The notes beneath the pieces are model-generated. The model worked only from the letters and a program-made list of their open reading frames with translations. It did not search any database and was not told the origin of the DNA. From the NCBI GenBank assembly GCA_030154045.1, contig JASKKU010000001.1:1025-65024 (forward strand): a stretch of 64,000 bases of DNA. Direction: 5' to 3'. Shown in pieces: positions 41,984 through 62,014 of this stretch. The position numbers and the translations under genes are program-made. Every line of letters starts with the position of its first letter. Positions within the stretch are counted from its first letter, which is position 1. The DNA is from Candidatus Woesearchaeota archaeon. Its GTDB lineage: Archaea > Nanobdellota > Nanobdellia > Woesearchaeales > JASKKU01.

Positions 41984-41985
41984 TT

Positions 41986-42420
41986 TTAGGTTATATTGGG
42001 CAGAGATGAACAGTGAGTGGCATGATTGCTGTGACTCGCATGGGTAGCGTGAGTGCCATGGGTAGCATGAGTACTATGACTACCATGACTGCCATGAGTA
42101 GCATGAGTAGCGTGGCTGCTGTGGCTTGAGTGAGTACCGTGAGTAGCATGACTGCTGTGGCTACCGTGAGCAAGATGGCTGGCATGACTAGAATGACTGC
42201 CGTGAGTTTGATGAGAAAAATGACTAGAATGACTAGAATGACTAGAATGACTACTATGACTACTATGACTACCATGCGCCACTGCTAATTTTGAAGTTAT
42301 AATAGAACTTACAGCAAAAGAAGTAAAGAATACTCCAGCACTAATTAAAGAATGCTTATTACTCAACCCTTCTTCACTTTTTATGAAATACATTATCCTC
42401 TTTTTAAACTTTGGAAACAT
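41986..42420 (-). CDS. His-Xaa-Ser/Thr tripeptide-repeat protein 2 (paralog): same conserved N-terminus, 30 repeats, short SLPNIT tail
   Basis: N-terminus MFPKFKKRIMYFIKSEEGLSNKHSL is nearly identical to gene 1 at both protein and DNA level; aa 49-138 are HGS/HSS/HAT... tripeptides; 2-nt spacing to gene 1 and 9 nt to the upstream radical-SAM gene. Confidence 0.8.
   Translation of the reverse strand: MFPKFKKRIMYFIKSEEGLSNKHSLISAGVFFTSFAVSSIITSKLAVAHGSHSSHSSHSSHSSHSSHFSHQTHGSHSSHASHLAHGSHSSHATHGTHSSHSSHATHATHGSHGSHSTHATHGTHATHASHSNHATHCSSLPNIT
42007..42276. repeat. tandem 9-bp-unit DNA repeats encoding the tripeptide array of gene 2
   Basis: catgac/tagtcat-type 9-mers repeated; the antisense ORF 41991..42275 is an artefact. 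Confidence 0.8.
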
Positions 42421-43931: not shown

Positions 43932-44212
43932 AAGAGAGTCTAAGCCTGCAGATTCCAGTTTTTTCGCAACCTCTTCCGTAATTAAAGTGCCGTTTGTTTG
44001 AAGATGAACCTTAGCTTTTTTCTTGGCTTCTTTAATAACTTCAAAGATATCTGGCCTAAGCAGAGGTTCTCCCCCTGTAATTATAATCTGTTCAACTGAA
44101 TCGAAAGAATTTATTTTTTCAACTAAGTCTTCAAAAGAAGGTTCTCTTAACCCCCTCTTACGAGTACAATAAATACAATTTTGGTTGCAATCACTCGTTA
44201 CCTGTAATAAAC

Positions 44213-45232
44213 CTATTTTAATTCTCTCACCTCTGAATAAACTTCAAGATATTGTTTCCAAAAACCAGGGCATTTGTTCTTAAAAGGACAAACTTTGCAT
44301 TTTTTAACCCTTTCCCTAAACTGATTTAAGGTATAAAGCATATTCTTCTCAGGCTTTGAAAGATAGCATAAGGGAATGTTCTTTGTAAAAACCTTGTTCT
44401 GCTTATCAAACTCAAAACACTTATAAAAGTACTCCTTTAAATCTTCAAACTTTGGTGCAAGTATAGAATATCTTAATTGAGCATCACCGCCAGGCTCAAC
44501 ATAACTTAACTGAATCTCATCCACAAGATTATAAAAAAGTTTTACCATCTCAAAGATTTCTTCAAAATTCTGTTTTAAGATCACAAAGTTTATTTTAAGA
44601 ATTAAATCATCGTATTTTAAATCGTAGAGGTTCTTTAAACCTTGTACGGCTTGTTTAAAACTCCGAGGAGTTCGAGTAATTGCATCATGAGTTCTTTCAT
44701 TAGAACCAAGAATAGTAAAAGCGATCATCAAAGGCAACTTCAATTCAACAAGCCTTTTAGCAAACTCTTTGTAAGCAAACATACGACCGTTTGTTGGGAA
44801 GAAGATAGGAAAGTTGTACTTTTTAAGATGTTCAAGAATTTGAAAAATATCTCTACGCAAAGTAGGCTCTGCACCGTGTAAAACTATTAGTTTTTCTTTT
44901 CCAGTTAACAAAGAATCAAAGCTTGAAATAATCTCTTCAAAACTCGGGTCATCAACTTTGTTCCTAGATGATTCAAAACACATAATGCAATTATTATTGC
45001 ATTTTTTTGTTATAAAGAACTTCTTTATACCTGAAAGATTCAAATTAATTGCGCCAGGTTCACAAACATTAACGCACTTCATACAGCCTAAACAAATGTC
45101 TGCATCAGGAGCAAACACCTTGCCGTTTTCAAATTTAAACAGTTGTTGTGGGCAGACATCAATACATTTTAAACATGAATTACACTTTTTTTCGTCCACT
45201 TCAATCCGTGAAAGAGAATTTATTGCTTTCAT
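44213..45232 (-). CDS. 2x[4Fe-4S] ferredoxin domain fused to a radical-SAM/twitch-like enzyme
   Basis: N-terminal CNSCLKCIDVCP and CLGCMKCVNVCEP; radical-SAM CNNNCIMC, GAEPT, IPLCYLS, C-terminal CKVCPFKNKCPGFW. Confidence 0.8.
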   Translation of the reverse strand: MKAINSLSRIEVDEKKCNSCLKCIDVCPQQLFKFENGKVFAPDADICLGCMKCVNVCEPGAINLNLSGIKKFFITKKCNNNCIMCFESSRNKVDDPSFEEIISSFDSLLTGKEKLIVLHGAEPTLRRDIFQILEHLKKYNFPIFFPTNGRMFAYKEFAKRLVELKLPLMIAFTILGSNERTHDAITRTPRSFKQAVQGLKNLYDLKYDDLILKINFVILKQNFEEIFEMVKLFYNLVDEIQLSYVEPGGDAQLRYSILAPKFEDLKEYFYKCFEFDKQNKVFTKNIPLCYLSKPEKNMLYTLNQFRERVKKCKVCPFKNKCPGFWKQYLEVYSEVRELK

Positions 45233-46098
45233 TTTTTAACATCTTTAACAGGTTTAAAGTCTGAATAATTTTTGAATATCAAAAGATTTTGTTTATAGTA
45301 ACCATTACAATTCTGCTTTAAAACACAGGAATTGCATTCTGACAACGGGAAAACATACCTATCATCATGAATAAAGTCTTCTCCAATAACGTGCTTTCTA
45401 AATTCATCTTCAAAAATACACGGGGGTATATTAAAAACAAAAACACGATCATCAACTAAAGCATCTTCTATATGGGGTTTAATTTGTGAGAGAGAAACAT
45501 AAATCAGATCTTTATTATTAAGACTTCTATTCAAGTAGAGAGGATAATCTAAATAAACATTTTTCGTGGGAAAAAAATTCCTAAGAAACAATACTGTTTC
45601 CTTGAGTTGTTTATAATTTTGCTTAAGAATAACAATCATAAAATAAATATTCAAATCAGCTTCTTTTATAAATTCTAAAGCCTTAACAACTTGATAAAAA
45701 CTACCTTTAACCTTTGTGATTTCATCAAACGTTTCAGGATCTTTTGAATGAAAAGTTGTTCTGATTATATCAATATGTTCTTTGACTTTTTCAAAAAACG
45801 GCTTAACCGAAAGCATTCTGATATTTGACTGCAAACTAATTCGTGTATTCGGATAATTTCTTCGTAAAAATTTCAGGAAATCCAAGAAATAAGGCACTAT
45901 TGTTGGTTCTCCACCGGTTATTTGTATCTCCACAGCAGATTTTGGAATTTGTTTTAAAACCTCTTTTTTTACAAAGGAATATTCAAAAAAAGGTTCATAA
46001 TTTGTTTCAGTATGACAATAAACGCAATGATTATTGCATTTTGTTGTTAAGATAATTGCAAACTTGTTTCCAATAGACTTATGGATCTCAAAAGGCAT
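45229..46098 (-). CDS. radical-SAM/twitch-like enzyme (paralog)
   Basis: CNNHCVYC, GGEPT, IPPCIFED, C-terminal CNSCVLKQNCNGYY; 4-nt overlap with the downstream gene. Confidence 0.8.
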   Translation of the reverse strand: MPFEIHKSIGNKFAIILTTKCNNHCVYCHTETNYEPFFEYSFVKKEVLKQIPKSAVEIQITGGEPTIVPYFLDFLKFLRRNYPNTRISLQSNIRMLSVKPFFEKVKEHIDIIRTTFHSKDPETFDEITKVKGSFYQVVKALEFIKEADLNIYFMIVILKQNYKQLKETVLFLRNFFPTKNVYLDYPLYLNRSLNNKDLIYVSLSQIKPHIEDALVDDRVFVFNIPPCIFEDEFRKHVIGEDFIHDDRYVFPLSECNSCVLKQNCNGYYKQNLLIFKNYSDFKPVKDVKK

Positions 46099-49844: not shown

Positions 49845-49881
49845 AATAAAAACAAAGTAATATTTAAAAAGTATTTAATCT

Positions 49882-51105
49882 TTGTGGTTTCCAATGAAAG
49901 TAAAGACTCTTACATTGTTAATAATCTCAGTATATAGTGTAGCACTACTGAGTCAAACTTTGGAACTGTTACCATTTACAATCTTTTTTCTTTCACTCAT
50001 TGCAATAAAAAGAAAAGCCAACCTCGATAAGCTTATAGTGTCTCTAACATTACCTCTAATATATTTCTTCCCATTCAATCTCTGGGTTGATATGAAATTA
50101 AGTTGGTATCTAATTCCTGTACTATTAAGCGCATTAATTTTAGTCCTATTCTTTAAAATTTCTGAGAAAATAATTTATATTTTTAAAAATTATAAGAAGG
50201 ATCCTCTGTTTCTATCAATAATCCTTTCCTTGACTTGGGTTGGCCTTTTATATTTAACTTATAAGATTTTAGGAACCGAACCAACTTGGATGTTTTTCTC
50301 ATATCGATGGTTTAAATCAAATTTAGCGCAGCTAAATATATACTCTTTTGAATCAATCGTCTTTTTCACAATATCCTATTTCTCAATTTCGTTAACCGAA
50401 AAAACAAATTCTGAAAAAAAGAGATGGGTACACATAAGTCTCTCTACTATCTTAATAATCATACTTTTACTCAGTTTTCTCAAACCAATAAAAATAGAGC
50501 ATCCGCAAAAAGCATTGTTGATAAACTTAAATCTAGATTTTTCTTATACACATAGAGTTGAAAACCAAAAAGAGATCTTGTATAAATATATCGAAGCAAT
50601 CAAAAATTCTACTTCAAAAGTTGATTTCATAATCTTACCAGAGTATGTAATCGTCACAGATTGGCGAAAAGAACCAAAAATCATTGAGTTATTCAAAAAC
50701 ACCTCTTCTGAATTAAACACACCCATTCTCGTAGGTTCAAAAGAAGATATAAACACAACGCATTTTTATAATGTGGCTGTGATCTTTGACAAGAATAAAA
50801 GTTATTCTGTAAGAGATGTATTCCCTATGAGTTTGTCTAAAAACACTGTTAAAGGTAACAGGCTTCCGACAATTGATTTAAAAAATAACTCTTATGCCAT
50901 TTTACTTTGTTTTTCAACAACACAGTCTAGATTTTGGAAAGAAATTAAAGAAAACCCTAAAATAGACGGAGTGTTGATTTTAGCAAATGAACAAGCATTA
51001 CATTGGTTCCTAAAAAAAGACGTATATTATCTAATCAGATATTTTGAAATATATTCTAAAAAGCCAATTTATAAAGCAGTAAACAACGGGATCACTTATC
51101 CATAA
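49882..51105 (+). CDS. polytopic membrane protein with a C-terminal CN-hydrolase-like domain (apolipoprotein N-acyltransferase Lnt-like?)
   Basis: About 6 TM helices, then IILPEY (Glu), KNKSYSVRDVFP (Lys), AILLCFS (Cys) in Lnt-like order. Confidence 0.35.
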   Translation: MWFPMKVKTLTLLIISVYSVALLSQTLELLPFTIFFLSLIAIKRKANLDKLIVSLTLPLIYFFPFNLWVDMKLSWYLIPVLLSALILVLFFKISEKIIYIFKNYKKDPLFLSIILSLTWVGLLYLTYKILGTEPTWMFFSYRWFKSNLAQLNIYSFESIVFFTISYFSISLTEKTNSEKKRWVHISLSTILIIILLLSFLKPIKIEHPQKALLINLNLDFSYTHRVENQKEILYKYIEAIKNSTSKVDFIILPEYVIVTDWRKEPKIIELFKNTSSELNTPILVGSKEDINTTHFYNVAVIFDKNKSYSVRDVFPMSLSKNTVKGNRLPTIDLKNNSYAILLCFSTTQSRFWKEIKENPKIDGVLILANEQALHWFLKKDVYYLIRYFEIYSKKPIYKAVNNGITYP

Positions 51106-51610
51106 AAAGTTCGTTAAAAATTCTTAAAAACTGTTCAAAATCAATTTGTGATTCCTTTTTAAAGTTACCTTTTTTGGCGTCATCAAAGAATTCTTTGTTA
51201 GAGATTATTTTTCTTAAATCTTGAGAAACTTTGAAACAAGTATTCCCATAAACCAAAATGTTAACACATTTCAAATCCTGAAGAATTTTTGTGTATGGGA
51301 ACGGATTACAAGTTAAACCCACAAACAAAGAGAAATTTTCTTTTTGTTCATTAATTGTTTTTTCTAGATGCTCATAAGAAGTTATCTGAAAAAATTTTAT
51401 TCTTTGTTCTTGCAAAAACCTTGTGATCTTTCCATAAACACAAGTCTTTCTTGTACACGTAGAGTCACAAAAATTCTTTTTCCTATACTTGCAATCCAAT
51501 GGCTTTAAACAGTAAGGCAGTAAGAAAACAATTTTCGGTCTCGACGTTTTTTTAACTTCTTGTAAAGAGCAATCCTTCAATTGAAAACCATCAAAAGGCA
51601 CCCATATCAT
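51092..51610 (-). CDS. small Cys-rich protein (8 Cys), unknown function
   Basis: Cys-rich segment LPYCLKPLDCKYRKKNFCDSTCTRKTCVYG. Confidence 0.3.
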   Translation of the reverse strand: MIWVPFDGFQLKDCSLQEVKKTSRPKIVFLLPYCLKPLDCKYRKKNFCDSTCTRKTCVYGKITRFLQEQRIKFFQITSYEHLEKTINEQKENFSLFVGLTCNPFPYTKILQDLKCVNILVYGNTCFKVSQDLRKIISNKEFFDDAKKGNFKKESQIDFEQFLRIFNELFMDK

Positions 51611-51613
51611 GTT

Positions 51614-52525
51614 TTATCTCCTATTTTGAATAACAGGCTCATGCTCTCCAAATCCATAAAACTGAACATAACTCTTTAACAAATGAGGACATTCATTATA
51701 ATAAATACATCTCTTGCATTCCGGTCCATTATCCATAAAAGCCCCACCAACACAACCCGACTTAACAACAAATTGTCTAAATCTTGGAGAAAAAAGAGCT
51801 TTTGGTAACAAATGAATTTGTATTTTTTCTGAAGAAAATCCTGCATTAATCAAGTTGGCTATTGCTTTTTCTATTTCAGGAGCAATCTCTAAATGAGAAA
51901 CTAACATTCTGTCTTTATTCTGCAAAGCCATCCCAATAACATCCATTCCTATAAAAGTAAACGAAGAAATTCTATACAAATTCTCTTTACGAATCATATC
52001 GCCATAAAACTTTAAAGTTTTATAGTTCATTTTGCTAACTACCGTTCTAATACCTACATCAAACCCCCTAGAGAGCAGATTTTTTAACCCAATCAAACTT
52101 TTATCCCAAGAGCCTTTAACTTGTGTAATTTGGTCATGGACAATTGAAAAAGGACTATAAAAACCAAATTCAATATGAAAATCAAATCCTCTTTCTTTCA
52201 AAAATAGAAACTTATCACAGAACGCTTGATAATAAAACATCATTCCATTTGAATTGATATGTATTCTTAAGTCTCTCTTCTTTTTTAAAACATGGAAAAG
52301 AATATCAAACAAAAAAGGACTGATTGTCGGCTCACCACCAATAAAAGAAACTATACGAATATCATCGCCCCAATTTTCATCAATAAACTTAAGAACCTCA
52401 TCTTTTGTAAGATTATAAGCCCTAAAATTATCATCGTTAGGGCAGTTTAAACACATCTGATTACATTTAGTTGTGGCATTAACCACTAATTCTCCAGGAT
52501 TCCTAAATCCATAAATTGAACCCAT
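51614..52525 (-). CDS. radical-SAM/twitch-like enzyme (paralog)
   Basis: CNQMCLNC, GGEPT, C-terminal CKRCIYYNECPH. Confidence 0.8.
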   Translation of the reverse strand: MGSIYGFRNPGELVVNATTKCNQMCLNCPNDDNFRAYNLTKDEVLKFIDENWGDDIRIVSFIGGEPTISPFLFDILFHVLKKKRDLRIHINSNGMMFYYQAFCDKFLFLKERGFDFHIEFGFYSPFSIVHDQITQVKGSWDKSLIGLKNLLSRGFDVGIRTVVSKMNYKTLKFYGDMIRKENLYRISSFTFIGMDVIGMALQNKDRMLVSHLEIAPEIEKAIANLINAGFSSEKIQIHLLPKALFSPRFRQFVVKSGCVGGAFMDNGPECKRCIYYNECPHLLKSYVQFYGFGEHEPVIQNRR

Positions 52526-52567
52526 GTTTTTAGATACCAGAAATTAACATAAAAATCTTTCCAAAAA

Positions 52568-54448
52568 TTACAACGGCTTAAGCTCATCAGTTCCATAAAG
52601 GTCAAAATACTCTTTTAAAACACCTTGACAAACATTGTTATACTTGCACATTTTACATTCTTCAGATTTATAACCAAACAAATCTCGTTCATTATTCCTC
52701 AATCTATCATCCATCCATTTGTCAAATCCACCTACAGATTTAATCTCATTAAACTCTACACTAAAAGTTCTAAATTCTTCAGGAACTTGACAAAGAGGAA
52801 AGTTCTCTAAGCCAATGGAAATGTTTTTAGTTTTGAGTTTATTCAGACCTTTAACAAGATAAGGCAATACTTTAGAATATTTTGGCGTGAGTTCTTGATT
52901 TAATTTTGTAGAGAATCTATTCGGTTTCACCATACTTACACTCAAACCAAGATGTATCCCTTTTTCTAAAGCTTCTGGATAAAATTCCTGCAACATAAAA
53001 TCAACAAAATCTGGAAAATATATGTAATTTCCTTTGTACAAAACATGAACAAGCATAACATCTATACTTAAAGCAATAGCATTATGTATGCCTTTAACAG
53101 TTTTATCAAAGTTTCCTTTGACTCTTGAAACTTTCTCAGAAATTTCGGTAGTATGTCCGTGCAACGAAATCATAAAACTATCTAACCCCGCTCGTTTCAA
53201 TCTTTCAACAAAAGCATAAGAACTTAAAAGAACACCATTTGTGTTTACAATAACTTGATTTGCATATCTCTTAGCAAGTTTAATAAGATAATCTAAATCC
53301 TTGTTTAAAGTTGGTTCACCACCCATAAAAACAATTTTATCAAACTCGTTCAGGATAATCTTCTTAACAATATCAATTAAAGGCAAAGACGAATCCAACG
53401 ATGGTTTTTCAAAAAAGGGTTTTTCTGCTGCAGGGTCCTGAGTGTCAATTCTAAGGAATTTATCATAAGTACAAAAAATACACCTTTGATTACACGAACC
53501 TGACGCGTTTATGATATTCAATCCTGACTTAAGTTGTTTATCTTTAAGAAAGAAAGGTACATAGTCCTGACTTTTAGATTTGATAGAATTAAACTCAAAA
53601 GTCCCGACAAAGTGAGTATAACTCCTCCAAGGTTTAGCGCATGAATCTTGTAGAGCACAATCCTTGCATGAATCCAAAAGGTCCAACCTTTTCTCAACAA
53701 CCGAAACTCCGCTTGCATATCTCCAATATTTCGATGGCAAAACACATTTAGGCATATGTAATAGAATAACCTCCAAATTCTTTTGTTTACAATATTCTAT
53801 CGCTTCAATAACGTATGGAATGAATTCCGCATAAGTAATCATAAGTTCTCTCCGATTCTTAGCAGCATTTCCAATAATATCTATAGGAAAAATAACAAAC
53901 CTATTGATTCCTAAACTTTCACCAATCTTGACTATATCCAAGATCTTTTCAAAATTTAATCTATGAATTACTAACCTTTGCTCAATAAACCAACCCAAAA
54001 TCTTTTTGATATTTTTAATACCTTCAATTGTCTGTTTAAAACTACCTTTAACCCCTGTAATCTTGTCGTGCAAGTCTTCACGTCCATGAATTTCTGTAAT
54101 TAAAAGAACTCTTTTTGGATCAATATCTTTAAAGGATTTGCAAAAATCAGAATAATAAAAAAGACGGGCATTGGTAACAAGCTTGATTTCTGCTTTTGAG
54201 TTATCCTGAATAAATCGCATAACTTCGTGTAATTGTTTTGGATAAAGTGTAGGTTCACCGCCCGTAATCACAAAAAAAGAAGCGTTTGGGTCTTTAGCCA
54301 ACGTACTTTTTATTTTGTTTATCTGTTCACGTAATGGCTGAGACTTCTGTTTTGAAGGCATCACATTGGTACACATAATGCAATTGTTATTACATACTTG
54401 ACCAAAATAAACTTCATAATCCAACATATTCATTTTGAATTCCACCAA
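52568..54448 (-). CDS. tandem double radical-SAM protein (two complete modules)
   Basis: Module 1 CNNNCIMC...GGEPT...CKDCALQDSCAKPW; module 2 CNQRCIFC...GGEPT...FPLCQV...CKMCKYNNVCQG and tail YGTDELKPL. Confidence 0.8.
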   Translation of the reverse strand: MVEFKMNMLDYEVYFGQVCNNNCIMCTNVMPSKQKSQPLREQINKIKSTLAKDPNASFFVITGGEPTLYPKQLHEVMRFIQDNSKAEIKLVTNARLFYYSDFCKSFKDIDPKRVLLITEIHGREDLHDKITGVKGSFKQTIEGIKNIKKILGWFIEQRLVIHRLNFEKILDIVKIGESLGINRFVIFPIDIIGNAAKNRRELMITYAEFIPYVIEAIEYCKQKNLEVILLHMPKCVLPSKYWRYASGVSVVEKRLDLLDSCKDCALQDSCAKPWRSYTHFVGTFEFNSIKSKSQDYVPFFLKDKQLKSGLNIINASGSCNQRCIFCTYDKFLRIDTQDPAAEKPFFEKPSLDSSLPLIDIVKKIILNEFDKIVFMGGEPTLNKDLDYLIKLAKRYANQVIVNTNGVLLSSYAFVERLKRAGLDSFMISLHGHTTEISEKVSRVKGNFDKTVKGIHNAIALSIDVMLVHVLYKGNYIYFPDFVDFMLQEFYPEALEKGIHLGLSVSMVKPNRFSTKLNQELTPKYSKVLPYLVKGLNKLKTKNISIGLENFPLCQVPEEFRTFSVEFNEIKSVGGFDKWMDDRLRNNERDLFGYKSEECKMCKYNNVCQGVLKEYFDLYGTDELKPL

Positions 54449-55368
54449 AAAACTTTATTCCTTTTTTTAGGTTCTTCAAATATTGGATAGAGTTCTTCTA
54501 ACCCAAACATCTCAGCATACTCTTTCCAAACACCAGGACAAACATTATTAAGAACACACAACTCGCAATCTTTTGATTTTTTCTTCAGTTCGGAAAACTG
54601 TTTTTTGAGAAGGTTATATTTGCCTGTTTGAGAATTGATATATTCTTGCTGATGATATCTTTCAGTATTTAACCGAATATACTCTGAAGAATATTCCTTA
54701 AATTCAAGCATATAACATAAAGGCACACCTTCAACCTCATAGATAATGTCCTCTTGTTTATCCAGAAAAGTTAAAACTTTATACAAATGGTATTGAACTT
54801 TATAAAGTCGTGGAACCAATTCAGGATGTTGTTGTGTTCTACCGTTTGGCCTGATAAATCCAAAATAAAATTTCACCTTACCAACATTTGATAGAATAAA
54901 TTTTACGAAATTAAGCAAATCTTTATAATTCAACTCGTTGATAACATGAGAAATTGCAACAAAAAGTCTTGCATCAACTAATCGTTTAAGATTTTTGATA
55001 ATAGTATCAAAATTATCAACGCCTGAGAGATATTTATGAACTTCTCGTTTGTGAGAATGCAATGAAGCCATAATCTGTGTAACATTCGTTGAAATCAAAG
55101 TTTCAAAGATCTCATCAGTTATGTTTGAAACATTTGTTTGTAGTTCAATATTCTTTCCTAAAGAATGAGCGAATTTAACTAATTCAATAAAATCTTTTCT
55201 TATCGTTGGTTCGCCACCTGTAAATACAACTGTGTGTGCATCTGTTTCTCTGATGATTTTTTTAACATGTTCAGTTGAGAGCGTTGCCTCGTTAGTGCCA
55301 TAAACAGTACAAAATTTGCACAGGTGGTTGCATTCGTGTCCTAAGCGAATATTCAACACTGAAGTCAT
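54430..55368 (-). CDS. radical-SAM/twitch-like enzyme (paralog)
   Basis: CNHLCKFC, GGEPT, VPLCYML, CELCVLNNVCPGVW, tail FGLEELYP. Confidence 0.8.
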   Translation of the reverse strand: MTSVLNIRLGHECNHLCKFCTVYGTNEATLSTEHVKKIIRETDAHTVVFTGGEPTIRKDFIELVKFAHSLGKNIELQTNVSNITDEIFETLISTNVTQIMASLHSHKREVHKYLSGVDNFDTIIKNLKRLVDARLFVAISHVINELNYKDLLNFVKFILSNVGKVKFYFGFIRPNGRTQQHPELVPRLYKVQYHLYKVLTFLDKQEDIIYEVEGVPLCYMLEFKEYSSEYIRLNTERYHQQEYINSQTGKYNLLKKQFSELKKKSKDCELCVLNNVCPGVWKEYAEMFGLEELYPIFEEPKKRNKVFWWNSK

Positions 55369-55392
55369 TTATGATGTAGATAAAATATATCT

Positions 55393-57045
55393 TTAAATGT
55401 TTTTTTGAAAATTTGGCGATTTGGTTAATTTAATCGCACCGTAAGGACAAACTTCGTGACAAGTATAGCAATGAATACACTTATCCTCAATAACTTTTAA
55501 TCGCTTGCCAATTTCGTCAAAAACAATAGCGCCAACAGGACATGAATTAAAACAAGTTTTACAAAGAGTACATTTGTGTTGGTCGATTGAAACTTTATAT
55601 ATATAGGCCTTCCCAAACTCTGCTTCATTTTTAATAGGATTCAGAAGATTAAATAGAGAATGTTTTTTAAAATTGGGATGAATAATCTCAACTACATCTT
55701 TGAAATCGCCAACAATTTGTATATTATCAGTATAACCTTCGCCCAGATACTTCTCTGTTGCAAACTTTACAGTAGGTAAATGCTCAGGCTCATAACCCAT
55801 AACCTTACTAACAACAGTATCAACAGCAACCCCGTCTTTTCCAAAGAATAACAATCCAACATTTACTGGGTCGCCATAAGAAGGTCCTTCGTCTCCTTCC
55901 ATTCCAATAATGCCATCAACAACATGCAAAGCAAACTTATCTTTTAGTCTTGAATAAACATCTACAACACCTTTAGCAAAATTAAATCTATCAACAAAAG
56001 AATGAATATATTTTCTTTCGTCTGGATGAATTAAACCAAAACAGGATTTTACACAACAGGTGAAAAAAGTAAGTCCGTGTGTTTTCATCTTAGGAACATT
56101 AATGATTAAATCAACCTTGTCCAAAAAAGAAAGAAAATCTGTTTTCTCAACTAAATAATAGTTTGGAATCCTCTTAACAGTATAACCATCTTTGCTCATA
56201 TCAACAATCTTAACATTTTCACTCAAAGCAACATCCTTCATTCCTGTAACTGTCATAAGTCTATCAAACGCCTGATAATTTGTACCTGCTGCCAAATCTG
56301 AGATGTAAATTTCATTTGTAACTTGCTTTAAAACTCTAACAATTGCTTTGATAACAACAGGGTGTGTTGTTGCAACTTTTTCCGGTGGCAAAGGCTCAGC
56401 AAGGTTTGGTTTTATCAATACCTTTGAACCTTTTGGAACTAATTTTTCAACACCGCCAAAAGAATCAAACCCTTTCTTCACTGCTTTAAGAATTGATTCA
56501 AAATCATTATAATCCTTAAATTTTCCAAAGACAGCAACTTTTTCTTTTAGACCAAATCCTCTCTTAGCCTTGATCAAAATCTCGTCTTTCGGTTTAAAAA
56601 TAGGATACACCTGATTCTCAAATCTTAAATCTGCACCTGGACAGAAAGATCTTACTGCACAGCTATCGCATGCAAGGAACTTTTTCTTAATAATTCTTTC
56701 AGGATTTTTTAGTTTGATTAACCCTTCTTCAAACAACAACTTAAGTTTAAGATCATAACTCAACCACGGAAAATCTTGAAGATAACATAAAGGTACATCC
56801 TTTACTTGAAGAACAACATCATTTTTCTTAGCCCACCTAATTAACCTGTTCAATTTAAGCTCGTTTGTATAAATTTCTCCAGAACATGAAACCAAAACAA
56901 ACTTCTTTTGCAAAGTTTTAATCTTAGAAGTGATTTCCTCAAAAGTTTCCTTACATATGTCAACCTCAATAAAATCTTGATTAGGGAGCGCTTCAACACT
57001 GCTATTTGTTTGTAAATTCCCTGATTCAAAGACAAACAGTTTCAT
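55393..57045 (-). CDS. fusion protein: degenerate radical-SAM C-terminal half-domain + DUF362 + 2x[4Fe-4S] ferredoxin
   Basis: N-terminus VPLCYLQDF...CDSCAVRSFCPG; middle HGLTFFTCCVKSCFGLIHPDERKY (DUF362-like); C-terminus CTLCKTCFNSCP and CIHCYTCHEVCP. Confidence 0.6.
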   Translation of the reverse strand: MKLFVFESGNLQTNSSVEALPNQDFIEVDICKETFEEITSKIKTLQKKFVLVSCSGEIYTNELKLNRLIRWAKKNDVVLQVKDVPLCYLQDFPWLSYDLKLKLLFEEGLIKLKNPERIIKKKFLACDSCAVRSFCPGADLRFENQVYPIFKPKDEILIKAKRGFGLKEKVAVFGKFKDYNDFESILKAVKKGFDSFGGVEKLVPKGSKVLIKPNLAEPLPPEKVATTHPVVIKAIVRVLKQVTNEIYISDLAAGTNYQAFDRLMTVTGMKDVALSENVKIVDMSKDGYTVKRIPNYYLVEKTDFLSFLDKVDLIINVPKMKTHGLTFFTCCVKSCFGLIHPDERKYIHSFVDRFNFAKGVVDVYSRLKDKFALHVVDGIIGMEGDEGPSYGDPVNVGLLFFGKDGVAVDTVVSKVMGYEPEHLPTVKFATEKYLGEGYTDNIQIVGDFKDVVEIIHPNFKKHSLFNLLNPIKNEAEFGKAYIYKVSIDQHKCTLCKTCFNSCPVGAIVFDEIGKRLKVIEDKCIHCYTCHEVCPYGAIKLTKSPNFQKNI

Positions 57046-57075
57046 TTTTAATACCTAAAAAATGAGAAAATAAGC

Positions 57076-58125
57076 TCAACTTAGTGTTGAAATATAAGTC
57101 TTTACAGATTTTCCATCATTCACCATAAGAACTGCTTTATCTATGTTTTTACATAAAGCACGTGAAGAATTATACCCAAAATGCACCTTGAAACTATTAT
57201 CAACAAAAGAATCTGTATTAACAATCCCTGGTTTAACACAATCTCCACTTAACGTTGGTGTATTGGATTCAAAATCAAGGGTATAATCAAATAACTTTTC
57301 ATCATTAAAATAGAGGGACAAGCCCAAAGTCTTAATATCTTCTTGTTTTATAGGAGAAAAAGAAATTACATACTCATCTGTTCCCTGTTGTGACAAACTA
57401 ATTGAACTAATCGGACTCTCGTTTATAAAAGAAAAGACAATCTTATTGTCAAGAACACTCGCAGATCCTTGATTAAGCTCTGAGCCTTGTAATTGGTTCG
57501 GTTTTAAAGCTAAGGAACCTTGGAATGAAATAAAAAAAAGCGAGATAACCAGGACTAAAATAATAACATTAAAAATCCAAAGCAGAGTAACTTGTTTATA
57601 TAACCTTTTTATATCATGGTTTTGTTTTTCGCGTTCAATTTTGCTTTCACCCATAATTTTTAAATTTCGTAAGGAAGAATTATCAACTTGTCCTTTGAAA
57701 TATTTTTCTAAAAGTTTAATATTTGACAAATAAAGACCACTTATGCTAAACTCATCCTCTTCATCCTCTTCGTCTAGAAAAGAAATTTTTATCGAAAAAG
57801 TATCAAAGAATTTATCAAAAAAAGTCTGATAAACCTTTATTGATTTGATTTTATTTTTAGGAATAATTGCCCTAAAAACATGTAACGTCTCAACAACAAA
57901 TTCATTTTTATTGTTAAGATAAATTCTTTGAAAGAAATAAAAACCGTTAAAAATCCACAAGATAAGCAAAACGGAAAATGACCACAAGATTGTATTAAAT
58001 AAAACATCAGTAGGGTGCCTCAAATTCATTAAAAGGAAAGGTAGAACTAGTAAAATTGCCAGTTTAAATGAAAAACTAAAAACCGAACCCAAAGTCGCAG
58101 GCCAATATTTTCTTTTTAATTCCAT
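57076..58125 (-). CDS. membrane protein (2-3 TM) with an acidic DEEDEEDE patch and a C-terminal extracytoplasmic domain
   Basis: TM helices LAILLVLPFLL, ILWSFSVLLILWIF, LLWIFNVIILVLVISLFFI. Confidence 0.3.
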   Translation of the reverse strand: MELKRKYWPATLGSVFSFSFKLAILLVLPFLLMNLRHPTDVLFNTILWSFSVLLILWIFNGFYFFQRIYLNNKNEFVVETLHVFRAIIPKNKIKSIKVYQTFFDKFFDTFSIKISFLDEEDEEDEFSISGLYLSNIKLLEKYFKGQVDNSSLRNLKIMGESKIEREKQNHDIKRLYKQVTLLWIFNVIILVLVISLFFISFQGSLALKPNQLQGSELNQGSASVLDNKIVFSFINESPISSISLSQQGTDEYVISFSPIKQEDIKTLGLSLYFNDEKLFDYTLDFESNTPTLSGDCVKPGIVNTDSFVDNSFKVHFGYNSSRALCKNIDKAVLMVNDGKSVKTYISTLS

Positions 58126-58172: not shown

Positions 58173-59138
58173 TTAATCTTTCGGTATTATTGGAAACTCC
58201 TTCTCATTATTCAAGATTTCCTGCTTTGATTTGATGATTTCTCCTGGAACAGGTTTGAACTCCTCAATACCCATTTTTTCAGGGTATTCTTTCCAAGGAC
58301 CTTCACAAACAAACCTAAATCTACAAGTCTTGCATTGAGGAAACAATTTTTTTCCTTCTCTTTTTCGAACTTCTTCAAAATTATCTATCCAAAAATTAGG
58401 CTCTTTAATCATCGTGTCAGGCATATAAAGTTCAGCAGCATACCTTTCGTAACCTTTAAGCATACAAAAAGGTACGGCTTCCACCATTACACCGATACCA
58501 TTTAAGATTCCAATCTTCAAACCTCTCTTAATATAAGGCATAGCTAAAGACATCACCGGCATCATTTTCTCATAGTATTTTGCGGCATTGCCTAAAGCAT
58601 GCACAAACGCAAACTGAAACTGGTCTACATGCAATTTAACGAACAATTTTGCAAGTTGAGGAGTATATCTATAATTTGGTTTAACAACCACAGAATTCAC
58701 AACAACTCTTAAACCTAGTTTTTTAGCGTTTATAATTCCTTTAACAGTCTGAGACCAAGAACCCGGAGCCCTTGTTAGATATTCGTGAATTTCTGGTTTA
58801 TAACCATGCAATGAGGGACCAAACTCATTTGCACCTGCAGCAACCATCCTCTTAGCAAAATCCATGTTTGCAAACATTCGTCCATTTGTCTGAAGCTGAA
58901 TACTCTCAAAACCAAGTTCTTTAGCAAATGCAACCAACTCAACAGCATCCTTTCTAATAGTAAATTCACCACCTGTAAAAACAACACCATTTGCACCCTT
59001 TTTTTTCGCTGTAATCAACGCATCTTTTATTTCCTGTGTGGTCCGATTCCCATAATGCCTATTCTGTGCCTGAACGCAGAAATAACAATTATTGTTGCAA
59101 AGGTATCCAGTTTTTATATCAACCCGATATAAATTCAT
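58173..59138 (-). CDS. radical-SAM/twitch-like enzyme (paralog)
   Basis: CNNNCYFC, GGEFT, VPFCMLKGY, CKTCRFRFVCEGPW, tail MGIEEFKPV. Confidence 0.8.
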   Translation of the reverse strand: MNLYRVDIKTGYLCNNNCYFCVQAQNRHYGNRTTQEIKDALITAKKKGANGVVFTGGEFTIRKDAVELVAFAKELGFESIQLQTNGRMFANMDFAKRMVAAGANEFGPSLHGYKPEIHEYLTRAPGSWSQTVKGIINAKKLGLRVVVNSVVVKPNYRYTPQLAKLFVKLHVDQFQFAFVHALGNAAKYYEKMMPVMSLAMPYIKRGLKIGILNGIGVMVEAVPFCMLKGYERYAAELYMPDTMIKEPNFWIDNFEEVRKREGKKLFPQCKTCRFRFVCEGPWKEYPEKMGIEEFKPVPGEIIKSKQEILNNEKEFPIIPKD

Positions 59139-60671
59139 CTACTCACCATATTTTGATTCGAACTCTTTAACCAAAGCATCAAACTCCTCCTCTGAAGGAA
59201 TCTTCTCAGGAATCTTATTATCTAAAGAATCTCCCCATTTTCTTAGATAAGGGGCATCCTCAGGAGAATGTAACAACAAATCAAAGAGATAATCAATCAT
59301 TGCTTTATGGATCTTGCACCTGTGCGTTGAAGGAAGGTTTACAACTAGAGAACCATGCATTTTATAATTTTCCACAGGACAAATACCACAATACGGATAC
59401 CATGGACAATTATCGCAGTTAAAAGATAACAAAGATGAGTTTGAAACCATTGTTTTACATAGCTTATTTCTCGTTAGATCATAGAAAGTGTCTTCATATA
59501 CGTTTCCAATCTTAAACTCTTCATCCATTGTCCTTGCTTCATCACAAGTATAAATAGAACCATCGTAATCATAAAGTGCTTGACCTATGAAAGCGCCACA
59601 AGGTCTTTCCAATTCAGCAAAACCCGGGTCTCTGTTATTTACAATCTTCATAAGAATGTACGACGCCAAGTTTTCCTGGGCACGAATACCCTTCTTGTTC
59701 AAAAACAATAAAAATCGAATCACTCTTTTCCAAGCTTCTATAAATTCCTCTGGCTCATAAAACAGAGATTCCCAACCCTTAACAGCGAATCCAAAGTAAG
59801 TGACATATTTGAATCTAAAAATTGGCAAACCATGAAGCACATACTCTTTTATGATATCTTTATATCTATTCAAAGAATACTTTGTAATAACCGGAATCGC
59901 AAATGTTCGATTATAACCTTTTTCCAAACGATAAAACTTGATCTTTCGAGAAACATCTTCGTAAGAAGACTTTTTTGGATCGTGAGTAAATTTTCTGTGA
60001 AAATCATGCAAATCTTTTGGGCCATCCAAAGAAAAACACAATCCAATCTTGTTTTTTCTTATAAACTCAAACTTTTCATCATCTAGCAAATTTCCATTAG
60101 TTACTATTGCAAAATCTAAAATCTTTTTATGCTTTTTATTCAACTCTTTAGCATACTCAACAACAAATTTAATGATATCGAACTTTAATAATGGTTCTCC
60201 GCCAGTAAATTCAATAACCATGCTTTTAGCTGGTGATTGAAAGATGAAATCAACAGTTTTTTTTGCAGTCTCTTCAGTCATATCAAAGCCCTGCTCATCA
60301 ACGTTTCTTCTTAAAGCATAACAATACTTGCAAGTAAAATTGCATCTCAAGGTTGGAACCAATATCTGCAAACTTGTACCATTACCTACATTCCAGTTGT
60401 AATTCCTAAAGCTCTCAAGAATATCCCTGGCATTCTCTGGGGTCCTGATAATGTGATTTTCTTCTAACTTTTTAAACAAAACTTCATCCATATCGTCAAA
60501 AAGATATTTTTTATATTCCTCTTCCTTTAAAAGAACCCATTTGCCATAATCATTAATTAATAATTTCTCTTTTCTTTCAGGATAATTCTTAATACGAACA
60601 TTTAACCTTGTATAATCCCTATTTAATTTGAACTTACTCATTTTAAAACCTTTTAAAATAAAAACAAACAA
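59139..60671 (-). CDS. radical-SAM enzyme with a full SPASM domain and a ~95-aa N-terminal extension (candidate RRE/peptide-binding domain)
   Basis: CNFTCKYC, GGEPL, SPASM cysteines CGAF...TCDE...LCKT...CDNCPWYPYCGIC; N-terminal extension precedes the radical-SAM core. Confidence 0.75.
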   Translation of the reverse strand: MFVFILKGFKMSKFKLNRDYTRLNVRIKNYPERKEKLLINDYGKWVLLKEEEYKKYLFDDMDEVLFKKLEENHIIRTPENARDILESFRNYNWNVGNGTSLQILVPTLRCNFTCKYCYALRRNVDEQGFDMTEETAKKTVDFIFQSPAKSMVIEFTGGEPLLKFDIIKFVVEYAKELNKKHKKILDFAIVTNGNLLDDEKFEFIRKNKIGLCFSLDGPKDLHDFHRKFTHDPKKSSYEDVSRKIKFYRLEKGYNRTFAIPVITKYSLNRYKDIIKEYVLHGLPIFRFKYVTYFGFAVKGWESLFYEPEEFIEAWKRVIRFLLFLNKKGIRAQENLASYILMKIVNNRDPGFAELERPCGAFIGQALYDYDGSIYTCDEARTMDEEFKIGNVYEDTFYDLTRNKLCKTMVSNSSLLSFNCDNCPWYPYCGICPVENYKMHGSLVVNLPSTHRCKIHKAMIDYLFDLLLHSPEDAPYLRKWGDSLDNKIPEKIPSEEEFDALVKEFESKYGE

Positions 60672-60699: not shown

Positions 60700-60954
60700 T
60701 CATTTAATATCAGCTGCACGCATCAACCCTAAAAGATAATTAAAAAACTCACCGTAAGCAATCTCAACATTTGCTGAAGAATCTTTCGGCTCAATATATA
60801 CTTTGAAATTAGTTTGATCTTCCCCATATATTGCGACCCAACAGCTCTCTTTAAACTCATTTAAAACTTCAACAACTAACTCAAAAGGATAAACAGAATC
60901 TTTAAAGGTTACAACAACCGTATTGTCTTTAAAAGTTCTATGCAACATAATCAC
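60700..60954 (-). CDS. small (84 aa) hypothetical protein, candidate accessory/chaperone of the cluster
   Basis: ORF with 4-nt overlap to its upstream neighbour; no motif recognised. Confidence 0.3.
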   Translation of the reverse strand: MIMLHRTFKDNTVVVTFKDSVYPFELVVEVLNEFKESCWVAIYGEDQTNFKVYIEPKDSSANVEIAYGEFFNYLLGLMRAADIK

Positions 60955-61496
60955 TCACCAGAGCTTTTCCCATACTTTTCATCCCAAGGTATCGCTATAC
61001 CTTCAGGATCATCAAAATCAAAACTATCAACAATCTCATCAACGTCAATACCATCATTTATAGTGGATGACTCACAATTGTCTCCATTCTCAGTAGTATC
61101 ACAAACTTCACAAGAACTTCTATTATCTGTATCAAAAGATTCTGCCATCTCTACATCTTCAGGTTGACCAAACAATGCTGCCCTCGTGATTACCTCCCGA
61201 ACACCTTTTGTCCTCGCAGACTGTATCTCGTAAAAAGCATAATTAATAAGTTGATTATTAAATTCCTTTGCAAGCTCCAAGAGAGATGTTTGCGAATTGC
61301 TGTCTTGTAATCTAACTTCCACAATCATTTCTTTTTCAGGATCACCATCTATCACAAAATATCCCTTATCCATTAAATCATACGCTGCAGATACAACTAT
61401 CGATAAAGGAAATATTTTAGAGTTTACCTTAACCAAGGCAAAATCAGCAAATAAATCAATATTTGCAAAAGATTGTAGAGGTTTCTCATCACTCAT
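60951..61496 (-). CDS. acidic 181-aa protein, first gene of the radical-SAM array
   Basis: Globular N-terminal half, then a highly acidic Asp/Glu/Ser tail containing CEVCDTTENGDNC. Confidence 0.35.
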   Translation of the reverse strand: MSDEKPLQSFANIDLFADFALVKVNSKIFPLSIVVSAAYDLMDKGYFVIDGDPEKEMIVEVRLQDSNSQTSLLELAKEFNNQLINYAFYEIQSARTKGVREVITRAALFGQPEDVEMAESFDTDNRSSCEVCDTTENGDNCESSTINDGIDVDEIVDSFDFDDPEGIAIPWDEKYGKSSGE

Positions 61497-61615: not shown

Positions 61616-61637
61616 CAATTCAAACAAACACAACTAA

Positions 61638-61901: not shown

Positions 61902-62014
61902 ACTTTTTAAATTATTAAACTAAAAATAGAAACAAATTCTAGGACATATTTAAAACCAGAGATTTATAGAATGAACTGAAAATAGAAAAATGGTGCAAAA
62001 TAAGATAAACAAAT

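What the first reader, a model, noticed from the sequence alone, without database searches (positions are those of the whole stretch)
59139..60671. SPASM-domain radical SAM with an N-terminal ~95-aa extension is the best candidate precursor-recognising (HxsB-like) maturase
This is the only member with a full seven-Cys SPASM domain (CGAF...TCDE...LCKT...CDNCPWYPYCGIC). It has a sizeable N-terminal extension before the CNFTCKYC motif. That architecture is typical of RiPP maturases carrying a fused PqqD-like RiPP recognition element. It is translationally adjacent to another radical SAM (58173..59138 ends 1 nt before it).
Basis: inference. Interest (0 to 1): 0.6.

Follow-up and report, generated by a model that had tools for sequence, protein, structure and literature searches.

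The report
Archaeal HxsB radical SAM maturase
This gene encodes HxsB, a known type of iron-sulfur enzyme that modifies proteins made of His-x-Ser repeats. This archaeal copy keeps a complete second iron-sulfur domain that six sampled bacterial copies have partly lost, but its extra front domain could not be shown to be the usual peptide-recognition module.

Summary
The ORF is real and is an HxsB radical SAM/SPASM maturase. It scores 414.9 bits against NCBIfam TIGR03978 (cutoff 370), and the source organism is a Woesearchaeota-like DPANN archaeon. The true start is most likely the ATG at 60641, giving 500 aa, not the TTG at 60671.

It sits in the conserved order HxsD, small HxsD-like protein, HxsB, HxsC-like rSAM. 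Two His-x-Ser/Thr repeat proteins with a shared N-terminal motif lie 17 kb away. It is the only one of nine rSAM domains in the window with a SPASM domain. The conserved seven Cys are C348, C366, C409, C412, C418, C421 and C442.

The N-terminal ~90 aa is a confidently predicted strand-strand-strand-helix-helix-helix domain found in HxsB from bacteria to archaea. I could not show it to be PqqD-like:
- no Pfam PqqD hit in 40 homologues;
- profile comparison gave about 1% probability against PqqD and 2-7% against the CteB recognition domain, while the CteB-versus-PqqD control gave 40%;
- Foldseek found no solved recognition domain.

So "HxsB-like" is supported, and "fused PqqD-like RRE" is untested at best. 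One new detail emerged: six bacterial HxsB lack two or three of the seven SPASM Cys, whereas the DPANN clade keeps all seven.

The parts
59139..60641 (-). hxsB: radical SAM/SPASM maturase, 500 aa from the ATG. The mechanical ORF extends to TTG 60671.
   Evidence: TIGR03978 scores 414.9 bits against a cutoff of 370, matching residues 34-479 (TTG numbering) to profile positions 12-465 of 466. Homologues start at MSKFKLN. AF2 model pLDDT is 95.7 and pTM 0.94. The best PDB matches are CteB, anSME, TigE, ChlB and SuiB.
60357..60641 (-). N-terminal HxsB-specific domain, residues 1-95. Predicted strands are 15-20, 25-30 and 35-39; helices are 40-47, 53-61 and 71-86.
   Evidence: AF2 secondary structure, block-mean pLDDT 89-98 across residues 1-90 in the full-length model and 83 mean when modelled alone. 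It matches TIGR03978 positions 12-90. A profile search found 595 hits, all at the N-termini of HxsB-type proteins. No PqqD or RRE signal was found.
60321..60344 (-). Radical SAM cluster motif CNFTCKYC (C100, C104, C107).
   Evidence: Invariant in 106 homologues.
59316..59600 (-). SPASM domain with seven conserved Cys: C348, C366, C409, C412, C418, C421 and C442.
   Evidence: Pfam PF13186 hit. Conservation is 81-100% in 106 homologues. All seven align with CteB Cys residues, whereas six bacterial HxsB lack two or three of them.
58173..59138 (-). HxsC-like radical SAM protein (321 aa) abutting hxsB. It has CX3CX2C at residue 14 and a four-Cys C225...C269X2CX5C module.
   Evidence: HxsC4 model 158.5 bits and TIGR03977 101 bits, both below cutoff. 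Cys map. The same B-C adjacency occurs in L001, L003 and L004.
60700..60954 (-). Small HxsD-like protein (84 aa).
   Evidence: NF038315 HxsD_rel scores 32.3 bits against a cutoff of 41. A 72-92 aa gene occupies the same position in all four relatives' loci.
60951..61496 (-). HxsD (181 aa, acidic C-terminal tail).
   Evidence: TIGR03976 scores 48 bits against a cutoff of 50. The positional homologues in relatives carry Pfam PF27806 HxsD.
41354..41983 (-). HxsA-like repeat protein 1 (209 aa). It has 36 H-x-S/T triplets, an N-terminal motif MFPKFKKRIRYFIKSEDG followed by a hydrophobic segment, and a Cys-rich tail.
   Evidence: NF038313 HxsA4 scores 73.3 bits against a cutoff of 55. Triplet count. 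Leader alignment.
41986..42420 (-). HxsA-like repeat protein 2 (144 aa), with 28 H-x-S/T triplets and the same N-terminal motif.
   Evidence: NF038309 HxsA3 scores 51.8 bits against a cutoff of 65, and HxsA4 scores 41.3 bits.
51092..58125 (-). Rest of the downstream block. It holds a membrane protein (57076-58125), a DUF362 plus 2x[4Fe-4S] protein (55393-57045), three more HxsC-like ORFs (54430-55368; 52568-54448 with two rSAM domains; 51614-52525) and a DUF116 protein (51092-51610).
   Evidence: L003 shows the same order: HxsB, rSAM, 348-aa membrane protein, DUF362-ferredoxin.
42429..46098 (-). Three further HxsC-like radical SAM genes next to the repeat proteins (42429-43931, 44213-45232, 45229-46098).

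Best explanation
The ORF encodes the HxsB maturase of a His-Xaa-Ser (HXS) system in a Woesearchaeota-like DPANN archaeon.

Shown here. It is a three-domain enzyme. It has a ~90-aa N-terminal alpha/beta domain specific to HxsB, a radical SAM core (C100/C104/C107) and a complete seven-Cys SPASM domain predicted to hold two auxiliary [4Fe-4S] clusters. It is encoded in the conserved order HxsD, HxsD-like, HxsB, HxsC-like rSAM. The genome also carries two secretion-signal-bearing proteins made of 28-36 H-x-S/T repeats.

Inferred from the E. coli HXS work (PMC13128918) and from SPASM enzymes such as CteB. HxsB cleaves SAM reductively and abstracts a hydrogen atom from the repeat protein before export. 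Together with the HxsC-like enzymes and HxsD it installs a covalent modification in the HxS repeats.

My best guess for the N-terminal domain is a docking module that holds the substrate HxsA or the HxsD partner next to the active site. It occupies the place of the RRE in related maturases. It is about 20 residues (one helix) shorter than the CteB RRE and is not demonstrably PqqD-like.

Rough probabilities: HxsB identity 0.95; acts on the HxS-repeat proteins 0.8; N-terminal domain binds HxsA directly 0.45.
For: Family: TIGR03978 414.9 bits against a cutoff of 370, over the full length.

Fold: AF2 pLDDT 95.7. Best structural matches are CteB at E = 2.9e-21 over 466 columns and anSME. The PDB profile search gave CteB at 8.6e-46.

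Cofactor sites: seven SPASM Cys are conserved in 81-100% of 106 homologues.

Context: HxsD and HxsD-like genes lie upstream and an rSAM gene abuts downstream. The same core order occurs in four related DPANN loci and matches the bacterial D-B-C-A order.

Substrate: the repeat proteins pass or approach the HxsA4/HxsA3 models. In relatives they sit beside the module (L001) or directly after hxsB (L005).

Leader: the motif [FI]PK[FL]K[KR][KR][IV]..[FY][LI]..E[DE]G is conserved across genomes whose HxsB are only about 42-52% identical.

N-terminal domain: it is as conserved as the core (43% versus 42% mean column identity). It aligns collinearly with bacterial HxsB. It is the only non-Fe-S N-terminal domain among the nine rSAM domains here.

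Genetics in E. coli: the HxsB cluster Cys are required for HxsA processing and for phage defence (PMC13128918).
Against: No biochemistry exists for any archaeal system. Even in E. coli it is not resolved which enzyme installs the +8 Da change, or what HxsB contributes.

The repeat-protein genes are 17 kb from hxsB in this window, with about 5 kb of unrelated genes between the two rSAM blocks.

The N-terminal domain showed no detectable similarity to PqqD, the CteB RRE or any solved RRE.

Bacterial and archaeal HxsA N-termini are unrelated: a Sec-like signal peptide versus the FPKFKKK motif. The HxsB N-terminal domain is nevertheless shared between the two. This fits recognition of a common feature, such as the repeats or HxsD, better than recognition of a specific leader.

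The adjacent rSAM gene and both HxsD genes score below their NCBIfam cutoffs.
Confidence: 0.6

Rival explanations
1. First reader's model. The N-terminal ~95 aa is a genuine, highly diverged PqqD-like RRE (winged helix-turn-helix). It binds the conserved FPKFKKK..YL..EDG leader of the repeat proteins by adding the leader as a strand next to beta3, as CteB binds CteA.
For: The secondary-structure order is three strands followed by three helices, as in RREs (RRE definition in PMC6231123). The domain sits where CteB, SuiB, TigE and SkfB carry their RRE, and these are among the best fold matches. The Foldseek alignment to CteB spans 466 columns against about 380 for the RRE-less anSME. HMM alignments to CteB reach back to the LExxG(I/L)(I/L) helix. 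The HxsA leader is conserved and has a strand-prone segment, RIRYFIK.
Against: There was no Pfam PqqD hit in 40 homologues at E <= 10. hhalign gave about 1% against PqqD and 1.6-6.8% against the CteB RRE, while the CteB-PqqD control reached 40% with the correct beta3-alpha1-alpha2 register. Foldseek of the isolated domain found no RRE and nothing better than E = 2. The stretch from beta1 to the LExxG helix is about 20 residues shorter than in CteB, so the RRE alpha2 helix appears to be missing. The domain is shared with bacterial HxsB, whose substrates have a quite different N-terminus.
Confidence: 0.25
2. Recognition is done in trans by the two HxsD-type proteins. The HxsB N-terminal domain docks HxsD or another enzyme of the complex, or is a purely structural cap, and does not bind the precursor.
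For: In E. coli, HxsD forms a complex with HxsC, and conserved HxsD motifs are needed for processing (PMC13128918). HxsD plus a small HxsD-like gene always precede hxsB in the DPANN loci. HxsD and the HxsB N-terminal domain are both conserved between bacteria and archaea, whereas HxsA N-termini are not. The pTM of 0.94 suggests that the N-terminal domain packs rigidly on the core rather than acting as a mobile arm.
Against: The E. coli pull-downs used only HxsC as bait. They did not detect an HxsB-HxsC complex and never tested HxsB-HxsD directly. No structural or sequence evidence links HxsD to peptide binding either.
Confidence: 0.25
3. The enzyme is unrelated to the repeat proteins. It would be a generic SPASM enzyme, such as an anSME-like or cofactor maturase, that happens to lie in an rSAM-rich region.
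For: anSME is a strong structural and sequence match. The repeat-protein genes are 17 kb away.
Against: The protein scores above the HxsB equivalog cutoff, while every other family in the top 25 listed, including anSME (103 bits against a cutoff of 349), is far below its cutoff. HxsD genes lie directly upstream. In relatives the HxS-repeat genes sit inside or next to the same module.
Confidence: 0.03

Closest known systems
Bacterial HxsB (TIGR03978) of the HXS antiphage system, as in E. coli/Klebsiella (Li et al., Nat Commun 2026, PMC13128918)
   Same: It scores above the equivalog cutoff. It has the same three-part layout: N-terminal extension with the first cluster Cys at about residue 94-100, rSAM core and C-terminal Cys-rich domain. 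It has the same D-B-C gene order and the same class of substrate, His-x-Ser repeat proteins.
   Different: Identity is about 30-34% over the top-matching plasmid-borne bacterial HxsB. All six bacterial HxsB examined lack the Cys equivalent to C366 and C421, and five of six also lack C348. They retain only the Aux-II-type set C409/C412/C418/C442, whereas the DPANN clade keeps all seven plus a clade-specific C202. Here the partners are eight short HxsC-like domains that lack the bacterial HxsC N-terminal extension. There are two HxsD-type genes. The substrates have 28-36 repeats, a different N-terminus and no peptidoglycan-binding domain. The host is an archaeon, whereas the paper reports 99.7% of HXS systems in Pseudomonadota.
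CteB, the SCIFF sactionine synthase (PDB 5WGG)
   Same: It is the best solved-structure match. It has the rSAM core plus a full seven-Cys SPASM domain with all Cys aligned, and an N-terminal domain in front of the core.
   Different: The CteB N-terminal domain is a proven RRE that binds its leader peptide. The HxsB domain aligns with it only from the last helix onward, is about 20 residues shorter, and gives 2-7% hhalign probability. The HxsB substrate has no Cys-rich core in its repeat array (only isolated Cys and, in HxsA-1, a Cys-rich C-terminal tail), so thioether chemistry is not expected.
PqqD-family RiPP recognition element (Pfam PF05402)
   Same: It has the same position relative to an rSAM/SPASM catalytic domain and the same order of three strands then helices.
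   Different: No sequence or Foldseek similarity was detectable, although a CteB-versus-PqqD control was positive.
NCBIfam variant HXS models (HxsA3 NF038309, HxsA4 NF038313, HxsC4 NF038332, HxsD_rel NF038315)
   Same: The window's repeat proteins, several of its rSAM proteins and the small HxsD-like protein have these models as their best hits. Multi-paralogue HXS variants are therefore already recognised by curators.
   Different: Only HxsA4 is passed (73 bits against a cutoff of 55). The HxsC4 scores of 42-165 bits are far below the cutoff of 500, so this cluster is not the variant those models were built on.

Membership tests
HxsB (NCBIfam TIGR03978, His-Xaa-Ser system radical SAM maturase) | Full-length score above the curated equivalog cutoff | tested here: met
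   414.9 bits against a cutoff of 370. Residues 34-479 match profile positions 12-465 of 466.
HxsB (NCBIfam TIGR03978, His-Xaa-Ser system radical SAM maturase) | Paired with an adjacent HxsC-type radical SAM gene | tested here: inconclusive
   An rSAM gene abuts hxsB with no spacer, and its best hits are the HxsC4 and HxsC models. It scores 158.5 bits (cutoff 500) and 101 bits (cutoff 267.9), so it is not an HxsC equivalog.
HxsB (NCBIfam TIGR03978, His-Xaa-Ser system radical SAM maturase) | HxsD gene in the same operon | tested here: met
   The upstream gene scores 48 bits against TIGR03976, just under the cutoff of 50. Its positional homologues in four relatives carry Pfam PF27806 HxsD.
HxsB (NCBIfam TIGR03978, His-Xaa-Ser system radical SAM maturase) | A His-Xaa-Ser repeat protein (HxsA) encoded with the system | tested here: met
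   Two repeat proteins lie in the same window. One scores 73.3 bits against HxsA4 (cutoff 55). They are 17 kb away here but adjacent to the module in L001 and L005.
HxsB (NCBIfam TIGR03978, His-Xaa-Ser system radical SAM maturase) | Modifies HxsA in a radical SAM-dependent way | not testable with these tools
   Only genetic evidence exists, and only for the E. coli system (PMC13128918).
Radical SAM / SPASM subfamily | CX3CX2C cluster motif | tested here: met
   C100/C104/C107 are invariant. Pfam PF04055 scores 67 bits.
Radical SAM / SPASM subfamily | Seven-Cys SPASM motif (C-x9-15-G-x4-C ... CX2CX5CX2-3C ... C) | tested here: met
   C348-x12-G361-x4-C366, then C409X2C412X5C418X2C421, then C442. 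Conservation is 81-100%. PF13186 scores 22.4 bits against a cutoff of 21.5. All seven align with CteB Cys residues.
RiPP recognition element (PqqD-like RRE) | Sequence-profile similarity to PqqD/RRE families | tested here: not met
   0 of 40 sequences hit Pfam PqqD at E <= 10. hhalign gave about 1% against PqqD and 1.6-6.8% against the CteB RRE, with a positive control at 40%. RRE-Finder and HHpred libraries were not available.
RiPP recognition element (PqqD-like RRE) | Winged helix-turn-helix fold: a three-stranded antiparallel sheet plus three helices that superposes on solved RREs | tested here: inconclusive
RiPP recognition element (PqqD-like RRE) | Binds the precursor leader peptide | not testable with these tools
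   This needs a binding assay or a co-folding prediction. A conserved leader motif does exist.

The most novel reading that the evidence does not exclude
DPANN archaea carry an expanded, ancestral-looking form of the HXS system. A full two-auxiliary-cluster SPASM HxsB would use an HxsB-specific, non-PqqD docking domain to hold the substrate. Up to eight stripped-down HxsC-like domains would then iteratively modify 28-36 H-x-S/T repeats on exported proteins. The result would be an archaeal cell-surface polymer that blocks viral DNA entry, as the bacterial HXS system does, or binds metals. That would extend a defence mechanism described in 2026 as almost exclusively proteobacterial to episymbiotic archaea. 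It would also define a new class of substrate-recognition domain for radical SAM maturases.
Probability: 0.15. Interest if true: 0.7.

Novelty: new member of a known kind. Interest (0 to 1): 0.35.

Why it matters
On its own the gene is an annotatable HxsB, so the finding is mostly ordinary. It matters in three modest ways.

[quoted passage not shown] The archaeal HxsB keeps the complete SPASM Cys set that six sampled bacterial HxsB have lost. It is therefore a natural comparison point for asking what the auxiliary clusters do.

Second, the published survey put 99.7% of HXS systems in Pseudomonadota. Hundreds of DPANN homologues, set in a much larger rSAM cluster, show that the system's range and diversity are under-described.

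Third, the N-terminal domain is conserved from E. coli-type to archaeal HxsB but does not score as an RRE. If it does bind the substrate, RRE-based genome-mining tools would miss this family.

Tried and rejected

2. Foldseek of the isolated domain against the PDB found no significant hit. I treat this as weak negative evidence because the domain is short.

3. HMMER scans of 40 N-terminal regions against Pfam, and of their profile against PDB sequences, returned only chance-level hits.

4. hhalign against the CteB RRE and PqqD alignments built here was negative, with a working positive control. No secondary-structure scoring was used, and the template alignments are shallow (at least 72% and at least 52% identity).

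5. A profile search with the N-terminal domain against 1.84 billion representative proteins looked for the domain in other contexts. All 595 hits are HxsB-type N-termini or fragments, so there is no sign of a mobile stand-alone domain.

6. I tested whether the bacterial HxsC N-terminal extension is the same domain as the HxsB N-terminus. It is not: 3% probability.

7. PADLOC returned only generic viperin-type rSAM hits. The 2023 library has no HXS model.

8. The Haft & Basu 2011 paper (PMC3133131) is not held. No supplement is held for the Mitchell-lab rSAM compendium.

9. I considered and rejected an anSME-like or cofactor-maturase role, because every non-HxsB model in the top 25 listed scores far below its cutoff.
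Full report
OBSERVATION

The minus-strand ORF ending at 59139 is real. Mechanically it runs from TTG 60671 and gives 510 aa. The closest homologues begin MSKFKLN or MSEFKLN, and the ATG at 60641 lies 58 nt after the upstream stop codon. I therefore take 59139..60641 (500 aa) as the gene and number residues from that ATG.

The radical SAM motif CNFTCKYC is at C100/C104/C107, so 99 residues precede the first cluster Cys. Pfam finds Radical_SAM and, just above threshold, SPASM.

Across 106 homologues, C348, C366 and C421 are invariant. C409, C412 and C418 are 95% conserved, and C442 (HRCKIH) is 81% conserved. The 'LCKT' Cys (C395) is present in only 4% of sequences.

The window contains nine CX3CX2C domains in eight ORFs. 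The other eight carry only a four-Cys C...CX2CX5C module and none hits Pfam SPASM, so 'the only SPASM member' holds. The next rSAM gene starts at 59138, directly abutting the HxsB stop codon.

IDENTITY

The protein scores 414.9 bits against NCBIfam TIGR03978, 'His-Xaa-Ser system radical SAM maturase HxsB'. The cutoff is 370 and the match covers almost the whole profile. The next best family, PapB, scores 158 bits against a cutoff of 340.

A 100%-identical partial protein is deposited from a Candidatus Woesearchaeota MAG. Of the 120 best homologues, nearly all that carry a source name are from DPANN archaea (Woesearchaeota, Pacearchaeota, Aenigmarchaeota, Nanoarchaeota), and several are already named HxsB; most of the 120 carry no name.

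The AF2 model is confident (pLDDT 95.7, pTM 0.94). Its best solved relatives are the sactionine synthase CteB, anSME, TigE, ChlB and SuiB.

CONTEXT

Upstream on the same strand lie an HxsD gene (48 bits against a cutoff of 50) and a small HxsD-like gene. Downstream lie:
- an HxsC-like rSAM gene;
- a 349-aa membrane protein;
- a DUF362-ferredoxin protein;
- three more HxsC-like ORFs, one with two rSAM domains;
- a DUF116 protein.

About 5 kb of unrelated genes separate this block from three further HxsC-like rSAM genes and two repeat proteins at 41354-42420. Those proteins carry 36 and 28 H-x-S/T triplets. One of them passes the HxsA4 model.

The core order HxsD, small HxsD-like, HxsB recurs in four related DPANN loci. 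An rSAM gene follows hxsB directly in L001, L003 and L004, whereas in L005 an 82-aa repeat protein follows it. L003 also repeats the order membrane protein, DUF362-ferredoxin. In L001 two repeat-protein genes lie inside the cluster.

The repeat proteins of three genomes share an N-terminal motif, [FI]PK[FL]K[KR][KR][IV]..[FY][LI]..E[DE]G, followed by a hydrophobic segment.

The bacterial reference order hxsD-hxsB-hxsC-hxsA is seen on Aeromonas and Klebsiella plasmids. It is described as near-universal in the 2026 Nature Communications paper. That paper showed HXS to be an antiphage system in which HxsB, HxsC and HxsD mature HxsA through N-terminal processing and a +8 Da change in an SHRSS motif. 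HxsC and HxsD form a complex. The specific role of HxsB is unresolved. The paper does not mention SPASM, RRE or archaea.

THE N-TERMINAL DOMAIN

In the full-length model, residues 10-88 form strands at 15-20, 25-30 and 35-39, followed by helices at 40-47, 53-61 and 71-86. Block-mean pLDDT is 89-98. Modelled alone, the same elements appear with a mean pLDDT of 83.

The domain is as conserved as the catalytic core: 43% versus 42% mean column identity. It matches the N-terminal part of the HxsB model (E = 1.2e-4). It aligns collinearly with bacterial HxsB.

A profile of the domain, searched against 1.84 billion representative proteins, finds 595 hits at E <= 1e-3. All are at the N-termini of HxsB-sized proteins, fragments of them, or HxsB fusions. 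The domain is therefore a family-wide, HxsB-specific feature.

Three strands followed by three helices is the order that defines an RRE (PMC6231123). Every similarity test I could run was nevertheless negative:
- None of 40 N-terminal regions hits Pfam PqqD, even at E <= 10.
- The profile finds no RRE-containing PDB chain.
- Foldseek of the isolated model against the PDB gives nothing better than E = 2, and no RRE appears among the 50 hits listed.
- hhalign against a CteB/SCIFF-maturase N-terminal alignment gives 6.8% (residues 1-97) or 1.6% (residues 1-68).
- hhalign against a PqqD alignment gives about 1%.

The control worked. The CteB RRE against PqqD gives 40% (P = 3e-4), with beta3-alpha1-alpha2 in the correct register.

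Full-length profile alignments to CteB begin only at HxsB residue 56 against CteB residue 65. That is the LExxG(I/L)(I/L) end of the last RRE helix plus the linker. From the start of the first strand to that point, HxsB has about 41 residues and CteB about 61. The CteB strand boundaries here are my own reading of its sequence, not taken from coordinates. The T..EI...L..Y helix (alpha2) that links CteB to PqqD has no counterpart in HxsB.

I aligned five DPANN HxsB, six PGAP-annotated bacterial HxsB and CteB. The bacterial set comprised Aeromonas, Methylobacter, Leptospira, Novosphingobium, Klebsiella and Agrobacterium.

All DPANN proteins and CteB have Cys at all seven SPASM positions. All six bacterial proteins lack the Cys at positions 366 and 421, and five of six also lack C348. 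All six retain C409, C412, C418 and C442. By analogy with anSME and CteB, which is established knowledge and not tested here, the missing residues are the Aux I ligands and the retained ones are the Aux II ligands.

The Klebsiella protein has Cys at 98/101 and 399/402. Those are the positions mutated in the E. coli study, so it represents the characterised type.

The 'full seven-Cys SPASM' is therefore real and distinguishes the archaeal clade from all six bacterial HxsB sampled, including the characterised type. The DPANN clade also has a conserved C202 in the core (97%) that the six bacterial HxsB sampled lack.

Bacterial HxsC proteins carry a 95-120 aa N-terminal extension that the window's HxsC-like enzymes lack. 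That extension is unrelated to the HxsB N-terminus (3% probability).

MECHANISM

Shown: the domain architecture, the cofactor-binding residues, the gene context and the candidate substrates.

Inferred: HxsB acts in the cytoplasm on the repeat proteins before export. It uses 5'-deoxyadenosyl radical chemistry with two auxiliary clusters, and it acts together with HxsC-like enzymes and HxsD.

The N-terminal domain is the only plausible dedicated docking module on any of the nine rSAM domains. By elimination, HxsB is a sensible candidate for the recognition step.

The target of recognition is less clear. The HxsB N-terminal domain is shared by bacteria and archaea, but HxsA N-termini are not: a Sec-type signal peptide in bacteria against the FPKFKKK motif here. 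The conserved target could therefore equally be the repeats themselves or HxsD. I put direct HxsA binding at about 0.45, a canonical RRE mechanism at about 0.25 and HxsD or partner docking at about 0.25.

VERDICT

The finding is a correct identification of a known enzyme family. The structural interpretation (PqqD-like RRE) is attractive but unconfirmed. This is a new member of a known kind, with variant features at the system level.

LIMITS

- The template alignments for hhalign are shallow.
- The bacterial comparison rests on six sequences.
- No biochemistry exists for archaeal HXS.

Noticed in passing
window 59316-59600 compared with loci L006-L011: All six bacterial, PGAP-named HxsB examined lack the SPASM Cys equivalent to C366 and C421, and five of six also lack C348. 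They keep C409/C412/C418/C442. All DPANN HxsB and CteB keep all seven. Bacterial HxsB may therefore hold only one auxiliary cluster.
   Followed up: partly
window 60036-60038 (codon for C202 of HxsB): A Cys in the rSAM core motif GLCFSLDG is 97% conserved in 106 DPANN homologues. It is Ser in six bacterial HxsB and Val in CteB. It could be a clade-specific cluster ligand or a hydrogen-atom donor.
   Followed up: no
P0095, P0244, P0248 and P0245 (relatives found): Some HxsB homologues are fused at the C-terminus to an APH-type phosphotransferase domain or to a family 9 glycosyltransferase. This hints that Ser/Thr of the repeats may also be phosphorylated or glycosylated in some systems.
   Followed up: partly
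window 55393-57045 and 42429-43931 (N-terminal parts): Two 'orphan' C...CX2CX5C four-Cys modules occur without a CX3CX2C radical SAM motif. One is at the N-terminus of the DUF362/2x[4Fe-4S] protein (Cys 87, 126, 129, 135). The other is at the N-terminus of the 500-aa rSAM protein (Cys 121, 168, 171, 177). They look like remnants or donated HxsC C-terminal modules.
   Followed up: no
window 41354-42420, L001 5375-6219, L005 11418-11666: HxS/T-repeat proteins from three DPANN genomes share the N-terminal motif [FI]PK[FL]K[KR][KR][IV]..[FY][LI]..E[DE]G ahead of a hydrophobic segment. The window proteins have 36 and 28 H-x-S/T triplets, against 5-8 in bacterial HxsA. They lack a peptidoglycan-binding domain. 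HxsA-1 ends in a Cys-rich tail.
   Followed up: partly
window 46220-51105: About 5 kb of apparently unrelated genes splits the HXS-type rSAM genes into two blocks. By eye they look like PlsY-like, DegV-like and CN-hydrolase/Lnt-like membrane proteins, but I did not test this. In relative L001 the repeat genes and the D-B-C module are contiguous.
   Followed up: no
window 61634-61903 (+): An archaeal SRP RNA (Rfam RF01857, 137.7 bits) lies about 140 nt upstream of, and divergent from, the hxsD start.
   Followed up: no
window 31490-31609 (-): Rfam calls a 120-nt tRNA that ARAGORN does not report. It is probably an intron-containing archaeal tRNA, next to tRNA-Asp and tRNA-Lys.
   Followed up: no
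loci L006-L011 compared with window 58173-59138, 54430-55368 and 51614-52525: Bacterial HxsC proteins have a 95-120 aa, apparently strand-rich N-terminal extension before CX3CX2C. The window's HxsC-like proteins start the motif at residue 13-21. The domain that might dock HxsD in bacteria is therefore missing here.
   Followed up: partly
P0241: A 6424-aa protein is the top hit of the N-terminal-domain profile (172 bits). Its best matching stretch is only a 30-residue piece (profile positions 23-52, residues 2692-2721). This is probably a repetitive or low-complexity artefact.
   Followed up: no
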